A stretch of 35,497 nt of DNA, taken from Raja brachyura (lineage: Eukaryota). Below, one piece after another: positions 12,662 to 13,492 of this stretch. The notes under the pieces are model-generated. The model searched no databases. It was given only the letters and a program-made list of their open reading frames with translations, and had not been told where the DNA came from. The translations under genes and the position numbers were made by a program. How positions within the stretch are numbered: the first letter of the stretch is position 1; every line of letters begins with the position of its first letter. The stretch lies in the NCBI GenBank assembly GCA_963514005.1, contig OY740782.1, positions 77,128,001 through 77,163,497 on the forward strand, in the 5' to 3' direction.

Positions 12662-13286
12662 CTGTCTTTGGCGGATTCCTCTTCACTTTCATCCACTCAA
12701 AGGTCTGTGCTGGAGGAGAGGTCTCAGCTGACGGGGAGCAGCAAGATTCCTGGTGACTGCCAGGAGCGGGTGACAGAGGGTGACAGCCTGCAGCCAGCAC
12801 TAAGCCCTGCTGCTCTTGCCTGTAAGGGTGATGGGTATATTGGCCTGGTCTCACCATCCCGCCATAGCTATGGTGCTGTGGGCTAATTGCTGAAGCAAGG
12901 TTGCCAGGATAGACAGCAGGATTACACTGAGGATAACCTCCGTTGCCATCAGTCTCTTGATTTAGTGAGTAGTGATGACTGTAGCCTGTATTGAAGCTTT
13001 GTGCTGGGTATCCCGTCCCACAGTTAGGGTGGGCACTGTAGGGGATGCTCAGGTTGTTATGTGTGTAACTAGCATGTTGATGGTGATGATGATGAAGAGG
13101 AGCACCTATCTGAACACCTCTGCTCACGATATAGCGGTCATCAACGTTGCTGTTATTATTGCCAACGGCACAAGACTGATAAGTTGTAATTCCTTGATCT
13201 GCATGGTAACTTCTGGAAGAACAAGTCCCAGTTTCTCCGCTAATAATAGAATAGTCTAGGAAGGAGCTCATCCTTGCATTGTCCAT
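12662..13286 (-). CDS. hoxa1: Homeobox protein Hox-A1, exon 1
   Basis: Starts [12 protein letters not shown], has a His tract and the hexapeptide region [14 protein letters not shown]; donor ACAG|gtaaag at 12662/12661. Confidence 0.97.
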
Positions 13287-13289
13287 CTG

Positions 13290-13364
13290 TCATTGGATAA
13301 CCAGCCTATAAAGTGACTGTCCACCAACCTGGATGGACCGTGCCAACTTCCCCACTTCCTCAAT
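13290..13364 (-). other. hoxa1 upstream ORF with near-cognate ATT start (24 codons + TGA)
   Basis: ATT GAG GAA GTG GGG AAG TTG GCA ... ATC CAA TGA CAG ATG; same frame as the CDS; resembles the recalled human HOXA1 uORF MEEVRKLA...Q*. Confidence 0.6.
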
Positions 13365-13399
13365 AGAGCTGAAAGAAAATTATATCAATATACAGTGAA

Positions 13400-13492
13400 G
13401 TGTCGCCACGTGACTCCAGCCAGCCAATCGCCAGTCTCGCTGCGAAGTTTGCATGCCCTTGCGGTGATCGATCACTGTAGTGGCATTTAAAT
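13400..13492. promoter_or_regulatory. hoxa1 proximal (probably bidirectional) promoter
   Basis: E-box CACGTG 13407-13412, CCAAT 13424-13428, palindromic GTGATCGATCAC 13464-13475; CpG-rich. Confidence 0.7.

What the first reader, a model, noticed from the sequence alone, without database searches (positions are those of the whole stretch)
13287..13364. hoxa1 uORF retained with a non-AUG (AUU) start, ending UGA-CAG-AUG in frame with the CDS
Seen: minus strand ATT GAG GAA GTG GGG AAG TTG GCA CGG TCC ATC CAG GTT GGT GGA CAG TCA CTT TAT AGG CTG GTT ATC CAA TGA CAG ATG(GAC), i.e. (I/M)EEVGKLARSIQVGGQSLYRLVIQ*. Recalled: the human HOXA1 leader has an AUG uORF MEEVRKLA...Q* that also ends TGA CAG ATG, and conserved poor-context uORFs are known in Hox leaders. 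Inference: frame and stop position are preserved despite a length difference, while the start is near-cognate. This would make hoxa1 output depend on initiation stringency (eIF1/eIF5). UGA-C is a leaky context, so readthrough could give an N-terminally extended HoxA1.
Basis: partly seen in the sequence, partly recalled or inferred. Interest (0 to 1): 0.8.

Follow-up and report, generated by a model that had tools for sequence, protein, structure and literature searches.

The report
Ray hoxa1 leader swapped upstream starts
In this skate-like ray the short upstream reading frame that brakes Hoxa1 translation in mammals is still recognisable but begins with AUU, predicted to be almost unused, while a different AUG seven bases before the gene's own start likely does the braking instead.

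Summary
In detail: ATT at 13364 opens 24 codons ending TGA-CAG-ATG in frame with hoxa1. The site is homologous to the published Hoxa1 uORF start: a mouse primer matches 19/22 with G where this genome has T, and the genome's own hoxb1 carries ATG GAG GAA GT at the aligned place. ATT is unchanged in 4 of 4 other batoid-like organisms whose contigs cover it. In mammalian reporter tables this AUU context scores 1.3 against 54 for AUG in the same context, and UGA-CAGAUG is neither known readthrough motif. It opens a 17-codon ORF over the hoxa1 start, scores 90 against 68 for the main AUG, is absent in mouse and is kept in 5 of 5 relatives covering it; two relatives add an in-frame AUG at -21. Best reading: the old start decayed and repression likely moved to new AUGs. 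No shark leader, transcription start or translation data were available. The scan's earlier notes hold nothing on this. New variant of a known kind.

The parts
13424..13428 (-). ATTGG (CCAAT box read on the other strand), about -142; shared with hoxb1 and hoxd1
   Evidence: a CAAT box beside an E-box is described as a promoter element for Hoxa9 in PMC9456764; role here inferred
13407..13412 (-). CACGTG E-box, about -126; ACGTG core shared by all three group-1 paralogues
   Evidence: E-boxes act in Hoxa promoters; binding here untested
13379..13384 (-). TATAAT, TATA-like; if used it would put a transcription start near or just downstream of the AUU
   Evidence: sequence; label and spacing recalled, untested
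13362..13364 (-). ATT (AUU) at -78, homologue of the Hoxa1 uORF AUG; U at -3, G at +4
   Evidence: unchanged in B, C, D, E; context score 1.3
13290..13364 (-). Relic uORF frame, 24 codons plus TGA, in frame with hoxa1
   Evidence: 3 of 3 substitutions among relatives change the residue
13354..13359 (-). GGAAGT block invariant in hoxa1, hoxb1 and hoxd1 whether or not an AUG precedes it
   Evidence: resemblance to an ETS-factor site is recalled, untested
13332..13338 (-). GUCCAUC, predicted to pair with GAUGGAC (13287-13281) over the main AUG; same 7-mer pair in hoxb1
   Evidence: 127 and 81 of 3000 shuffles reach it; noticed after the fact
13305..13307 (-). AGG at -21; read as ATG in organisms E and G, giving a 5-residue AUG uORF that uses the same TGA
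   Evidence: context score 26
13302..13304 (-). In-frame CTG at -18, the best-scoring near-cognate codon looked up in the leader (8.1)
13240..13293 (-). Out-of-frame AUG at -7 (last A of CAA plus TG of the stop) opening a 17-residue ORF that overlaps the hoxa1 start and ends at TAG 13242
   Evidence: kept in B, C, D, E, G; mouse has GTG here; context score 90
13290..13292 (-). In-frame TGA two codons before the main AUG; TAG at the same codon in hoxb1
12662..13286 (-). hoxa1 exon 1 coding sequence; main AUG has C at -3, G at +4 (score 68); further AUGs at +7 (out of frame, 3 residues, score 107) and +15 (Met6, score 76, aligned with the hoxd1 start)

Best explanation
The hoxa1 leader of this ray keeps the frame and stop of the vertebrate Hoxa1 uORF but has AUU in place of AUG, which is predicted to be nearly silent, and an out-of-frame AUG at -7 likely takes a sizeable share of scanning ribosomes away from the main start instead. 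Shown: the triplets, their contexts, the homology of the site to an AUG in mouse Hoxa1 and in this genome's hoxb1, the persistence of AUU and of the -7 AUG in other batoid-like organisms, and the absence of the -7 AUG in mouse. Inferred from mammalian reporter tables: AUU captures about 1% of ribosomes; the -7 AUG lowers use of the main AUG by about 1.3-fold (if close AUGs share in proportion to strength) to about 4-fold (strict first-come scanning). Ribosomes starting at -7 would stop 44 bases inside the coding sequence and could not go back to Met1. Inferred: the surrounding bases stay conserved mainly as promoter or leader sequence, and the stop at -6 would block N-terminal extensions. Whether the -7 AUG was selected as compensation is untested.
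For: AUG ancestry: mouse primer 19/22 with G at the third start base; hoxb1 ATG GAG GAA GT at -86. AUU context 1.3 against 54 for AUG in the same context (two tables, similar but not identical scales). -7 AUG context 90 (78 in E and G) against main 68. Model outputs. -7 AUG unchanged in 5 of 5 organisms whose contigs cover it with flank (B, C, D, E, G), even where the base before it changed (E, G); its ORF ends at the same TAG in those five. Mouse has CAG TGA, so no AUG. E and G add an in-frame AUG at -21. GGAAGT is kept in hoxd1, which has ACG at the site (score 1.1), so the block survives without an AUG. No sign of peptide constraint: 3 of 3 changes non-synonymous. Loss-and-gain compensation of uATGs is a documented pattern in Drosophila.
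Against: All numbers come from mammalian cell reporters; the scanning model was validated only on starts 20 or more bases apart, and in yeast an out-of-frame uAUG loses force as it nears the main AUG, including a weak one at -7. The -7 AUG needs only an A before the conserved TGA, so it arises easily, and the whole leader is nearly invariant (2 differences in 117 bases in E, not different from coding sequence, P=0.33), so its persistence is no specific sign of selection. One of two substitutions creating an AUG has a chance of 0.13. 3 of 3 non-synonymous has a neutral chance of 0.32. A predicted stem starts 18 bases after the AUU, the spacing reported to help AUU initiation in PTEN. E and G contigs have depth under 5. 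All relatives seen are batoid-like, so the order of loss and gain is unknown.
Confidence: 0.52

Rival explanations
1. Inert relic: neither the AUU nor the -7 AUG matters. The leader is conserved as core-promoter DNA in a slowly evolving Hox cluster, and the -7 AUG is a tolerated by-product of a CAG-to-CAA change whose effect is small because it competes at close range with three downstream AUGs.
For: CAAT box, E-box and GGAAGT shared by three paralogues regardless of start codon; chondrichthyan Hoxa clusters are very conserved in general; proximity weakens uAUGs; proportional sharing costs the main AUG only 27% to 20%; hoxa9 here has no AUG within 110 bases at all, although its uORF is reported conserved from mammals to fish.
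Against: The -7 context scores above the main AUG; the main AUG has C at -3, and in yeast a nearby uAUG was less inhibitory when the main AUG was in strong context; the AUG persisted in 5 of 5 covering relatives from at least two batoid-like groups.
Confidence: 0.3
2. One reading: the AUU (or the in-frame GUG, UUG, CUG) is a working near-cognate start, helped by the stem just downstream, and makes hoxa1 sensitive to eIF1/eIF5 balance.
For: AUU unchanged in 4 of 4 covering relatives, frame intact; G at +4 and C at -4 are favourable; predicted stem 18 bases downstream, 127-base fold z = -2.25; the in-frame near-cognate codons together reach about 11% in the model; AUU-started inhibitory uORFs exist (AZIN1).
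Against: Score 1.3, lowest of the four in-frame codons looked up; no PPW stall motif and no peptide constraint; even the mouse AUG version gave only a modest derepression when removed; mouse leader lengths of 64-98 bases, shifted by 12, put the start at -76 to -110, so the AUU may sit at or very near the cap.
Confidence: 0.14
3. Readthrough of UGA-C gives an N-terminally extended HoxA1 with a function.
For: UGA followed by C is the leakiest class; the frame is continuous with the coding sequence.
Against: Neither CUAG nor CARYYA follows; hoxb1 keeps a stop at the same codon but as UAG, which fits selection for stopping; predicted yield 0.001-0.17%; all 18 listed chondrichthyan HoxA1 proteins begin at MDNA(R/K)M; extension residues are not constrained.
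Confidence: 0.03

Closest known systems
Conserved inhibitory Hoxa1 uORF (Ivanov et al. 2022, PMC8892498)
   Same: Same gene, homologous start block, pyrimidine at -3 and G at +4, stop two codons before the main AUG.
   Different: AUU instead of AUG; 25 codons instead of 21; an extra overlapping AUG at -7 that mouse lacks; no CAGE, ribosome profiling or reporter data.
AUU-initiated inhibitory uORF of AZIN1 (passages of PMC9082881)
   Same: AUU start, upstream of a main ORF, kept across related species.
   Different: No PPW stall motif, no peptide conservation, U at -3; derived from an AUG by one change.
uATG loss-gain compensation in Drosophila (PMC13019311)
   Same: An ancestral upstream AUG lost and another present elsewhere in the same leader.
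   Different: A single vertebrate case; order of events and selection not shown.
Closely spaced competing AUGs (Li et al. 2022, PMC9743702)
   Same: Out-of-frame AUG at -7 and at +7 of a main AUG.
   Different: Here natural, conserved, and the main AUG has C at -3.
Programmed readthrough at UGA-CUAG or CARYYA (PMC4132726)
   Same: UGA followed by C.
   Different: Following bases are CAGAUG; the stop closes a uORF with no AUG.

Membership tests
Conserved inhibitory Hox uORFs (PMC8892498) | Starts at AUG | tested here: not met
   ATT at 13364, same in B, C, D, E
Conserved inhibitory Hox uORFs (PMC8892498) | Suboptimal context; for Hoxa1 no purine at -3, G at +4 | tested here: met
   U at -3, G at +4; paper text
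Conserved inhibitory Hox uORFs (PMC8892498) | Homologous position and frame across vertebrates | tested here: met
   mouse primers at both ends; 25 versus 21 codons; the middle of the mouse uORF was not seen
Conserved inhibitory Hox uORFs (PMC8892498) | Lies inside the capped leader | not testable with these tools
   only contigs were available; they cannot show a start
Conserved inhibitory Hox uORFs (PMC8892498) | Translated, inhibitory and responsive to eIF1/eIF5 | not testable with these tools
   needs profiling and reporters; predicted load about 1%
AZIN1-type non-AUG regulatory uORF | Near-cognate start codon kept in relatives | tested here: met
   4 of 4 covering relatives, but the whole leader is nearly invariant
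AZIN1-type non-AUG regulatory uORF | Conserved peptide with a stalling motif (PPW) | tested here: not met
   no PPW; 3 of 3 changes non-synonymous (few changes)
Programmed stop-codon readthrough | UGA-CUAG or CARYYA after the stop | tested here: not met
   UGA-CAGAUG against motifs in PMC4132726
Programmed stop-codon readthrough | Measured readthrough product | not testable with these tools
   needs a reporter or proteomics
Overlapping out-of-frame upstream ORF | AUG upstream, other frame, stop inside the main ORF | tested here: met
   ATG 13293, TAG 13242
Overlapping out-of-frame upstream ORF | Lowers main-ORF translation | not testable with these tools
   predicted 1.3- to 4-fold; proximity caveat

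The most novel reading that the evidence does not exclude
The Hoxa1 uORF is older than the duplications that made HoxA, B and D (hoxb1 still has its AUG; hoxa1 and hoxd1 sit one change away at the same site), and batoids replaced its start with an AUG built into the uORF's own stop codon, so translational braking of hoxa1 was kept by selection through turnover of start codons within a cluster of four AUGs (-7, 0, +7, +15) that would read out initiation stringency.
Probability: 0.25. Interest if true: 0.65.

Novelty: new variant of a known kind. Interest (0 to 1): 0.42.

Why it matters
Why some Hox leaders keep weak upstream starts from fish to mammals is open. A lineage that lost the Hoxa1 uAUG while carrying another AUG in the same leader is a natural experiment: three small reporter changes can separate a need for repression from a need for that particular uORF or for the DNA under it. 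The AUG block in hoxb1 also suggests that the element predates the Hox cluster duplications. If the -7 AUG is inert, the case shrinks to a relic showing that this uORF can be lost.

Tried and rejected
Transcription start: no RNA holder was on record; four runs guessed to be RNA were laid as contigs, which end at 13352, 13311 and 13293 or run on to 13531; contigs cannot show a start, so nothing is concluded. Organism H gave no laid contig. Dropped rows: the gaps at 13341 and 13345 belong to a 283-base contig with unrelated flanks, not to hoxa1; organism F's contig ends at 13293 with unlisted end differences and was not counted for the -7 AUG. Metagenome scans for vertebrate hoxa1: 0 matches and 2 matches with unrelated flanks. 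A protein search with the uORF read through found 2 proteins among 3 candidates, both matching only the coding part; it is insensitive to diverged extensions. No shark or chimaera leader was obtained; PMC2746220 has no readable supplement. Rfam: 2 weak snoRNA matches far below gathering score, outside the leader. The uORF alone does not fold better than shuffles (z -0.29). Covariation of the helix over the AUG could not be tested with three variant sites. Earlier scan notes: nothing relevant.

Full report
Setting. The window holds the 3' end of a HoxA cluster on the minus strand (hoxa3, hoxa2, hoxa1) in a 2.7-gigabase genome. The exon-1 peptide is 90.9-99.0% identical to 9 batoid HoxA1 proteins and 81.3-86.6% to 8 shark proteins, so this is a batoid, skate-like by its N-terminal residues. 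Positions below are relative to the main AUG at 13286.

Observation. ATT at -78 opens IEEVGKLARSIQVGGQSLYRLVIQ, then TGA CAG ATG. The open frame is ordinary: 32% of 5000 shuffles give one as long. The homology is not. PMC8892498 describes a 21-codon mouse Hoxa1 uORF whose AUG lacks a purine at -3 and has G at +4; the AUU here has U at -3 and G at +4. A mouse Hoxa1 primer (PMC2817470) matches 13363-13342 at 19 of 22 bases, with G at the third base of the start triplet. A mouse cloning primer (PMC9456764) shows the leader ending ACT CAG TGA CAG ATG. The middle of the mammalian uORF was not seen in any call.

Ancestry. A loose end led to the genome's hoxb1. Its leader aligns with that of hoxa1 above 1000 of 1000 shuffles and has ATG GAG GAA GT at -86, one mismatch from the hoxa1 block (29 of 5000 shuffles). 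Its uORF is 8 residues in another frame, yet it too has an in-frame stop at -6, as TAG. hoxd1 aligns more weakly (8 of 1000 shuffles reach the global score) and has ACG at the site. All three keep ATTGG near -142, an ACGTG E-box core near -125 and GGAAGT right after the site. So AUG is the likely ancestral state, perhaps older than the cluster duplications, and the flanks persist without it.

Relatives. One search listed 23 runs of 8 coded organisms; I laid 8 runs of 7 organisms. ATT is unchanged in 4 of 4 organisms covering it: B, C, D (99% or more alike) and E (about 94%, stingray-like residues). None has an indel in -78..-1. The three substitutions in the uORF frame all change the residue (neutral chance 0.32). 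In E the stretch 13287-13403 has 2 differences in 117 bases, fewer than the upstream 128 bases (12; P=0.012) but not fewer than coding sequence (8 in 200; P=0.33). E and G share both of their changes: one turns AGG at -21 into an in-frame ATG, the other alters the base before the -7 AUG and leaves it intact. Both contigs have depth under 5, but the agreement of two organisms argues against error. All organisms laid look batoid; no shark or chimaera leader was seen.

What was missed. CAA|TGA spells an AUG at -7, out of frame, opening 17 residues that end at TAG 44 bases inside the coding sequence, about 580 bases before the exon-1 donor. It is present in 5 of 5 relatives covering it (B, C, D, E, G) and absent in mouse, which has CAG TGA. 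Unlike the AUU it is in the mRNA for any plausible transcription start. There are further AUGs at +7 (out of frame, 3 residues) and +15 (Met6).

Strengths. From two mammalian FACS-seq tables: AUU -78 scores 1.3, GUG -69 1.7, UUG -60 2.3, CUG -18 8.1; four out-of-frame near-cognate codons score 0.4-3. AUG in the -78 context would score 54; the -7 AUG scores 90 (78 in E and G), the -21 AUG 26, the main AUG 68, +7 107, Met6 76. With k=0.86 and strict first-come scanning, AUU takes 1.1% of ribosomes, the -7 AUG 69%, the main AUG 12% (52% without the -7 AUG, 11.9% without the AUU); if the four close AUGs share in proportion, the main AUG falls only from 27% to 20%. These are rough: mammalian cells, two scales, a model validated on starts 20 or more bases apart, and yeast data showing that close uAUGs inhibit less. 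By the -3/+4 rule of PMC8892498 the -7 AUG counts as poor context, so it could still respond to eIF1/eIF5; the main AUG is suboptimal too, so the direction of response is not predictable from sequence.

In favour of the AUU. It has G at +4 and C at -4, both helpful. A stem is predicted to begin 18 bases after it and to include a 7-pair helix over the main AUG; PTEN uses a hairpin at that spacing. The same 7-mer pair occurs in hoxb1; 127 and 81 of 3000 shuffles reach it, the two cases are not independent and I noticed it after the fact. Against: mouse leaders of 64-98 bases, shifted by the 12 extra bases, put the start at -76 to -110, so the AUU may lie at or close to the cap, and the mouse AUG uORF itself repressed only modestly.

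Readthrough. UGA-CAGAUG matches neither CUAG nor CARYYA. Taking 0.1-1.5% readthrough (0.1% is my assumption; 1.5% is the value for UGA-CUA), the extended form would be 0.001-0.17%. A stop kept at the same codon as TGA in hoxa1 and TAG in hoxb1 fits a barrier against extensions better.

Controls. In this genome hoxa9 has no AUG within 110 bases of its start, while hoxa11 keeps an AUG of the described context whose ORF overlaps the coding start, so turnover of Hox upstream starts is not confined to hoxa1. Compensation between loss and gain of uATGs is documented in Drosophila.

Literature seen. PMC8892498: parts 1-5 of 9, passages, Dataset S4 (cut) and rows of S1 and S3; its SI Appendix with the Hoxa1 alignment (Fig. 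S3) could not be read and may bear on novelty; the main text has no occurrence of shark or cartilaginous. PMC2817470, PMC9082881, PMC5666671, PMC4132726, PMC2746220: passages. PMC9456764: passages and primer table. PMC5778536: passages and table rows. PMC4299517: passages, section 10, table rows. PMC9743702: abstract and section 9. PMC13019311: abstract and section 26. Searches listed no paper that by title or abstract start deals with a batoid Hox uORF or a Hoxb1 uORF (0 papers with all three terms); subscription papers are not covered. The labels TATA-like and ETS-like are recalled.

Verdict. A real, lineage-level variant of a known element. It fails the AUG test for membership in the published class but is its homologue. 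Most likely the AUU is a near-silent relic and any upstream brake now sits at the -7 AUG (0.52); an inert relic is the main rival (0.30); a working AUU uORF is possible (0.14); useful readthrough is unlikely (0.03). Interest 0.42.

Noticed in passing
L013 minus strand, locus 2202 (G000:C34:2070001): hoxb1 leader has ATG GAG GAA GT at -86 (8-residue uORF, other frame) aligned with the hoxa1 AUU, and TAG CAG ATG before its start; Hoxb1 is not among the 13 genes with conserved uORFs listed in PMC8892498.
   Followed up: yes
L014:2422-2520 +: hoxd1 has ACG at the aligned site, opening 32 codons whose TGA overlaps the main AUG, plus a separate 7-residue AUG uORF at -72; the hoxd1 start aligns with Met6 of HoxA1.
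   Followed up: partly
L019 minus strand, upstream of locus 4678: hoxa9 has no AUG in the 110 bases before its start, although a 7-codon AUG uORF is reported conserved from mammals to fish; a second apparent uAUG loss in this genome.
   Followed up: partly
L021 minus strand, around locus 8353-8369: hoxa11 keeps an AUG with A at -3 and no G at +4, as described for the mammalian uORF, but its ORF is 23 codons and overlaps the coding start; an in-frame AUG at -39 could add 13 residues.
   Followed up: partly
L017 (hoxa6, -72), L020 (hoxa10, -51), hoxd10 (-50): Short AUG uORFs (MTTNS, MSA); hoxa10 and hoxd10 share an MSA start, and a mouse Hoxa10 primer matches the hoxa10 one. The paper lists Hoxa6 and Hoxd10 uORFs as conserved only to tetrapods.
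   Followed up: no
window 26512-26375 minus: hoxa3 has a poor-context out-of-frame AUG at -64 opening 46 codons across its start, but it lies in the CAAT box just after an E-box and may be promoter rather than leader.
   Followed up: no
window 13338-13332 and 13287-13281 minus; hoxb1 -14..+5: A 7-pair helix covering the main AUG is predicted in both hoxa1 (long range) and hoxb1 (hairpin), and survives the D and E variants.
   Followed up: partly
window 13268-13266 minus: HoxA1 residue 7 is Ser here but Asn in the 17 listed shark and batoid proteins compared and in B-F.
   Followed up: no
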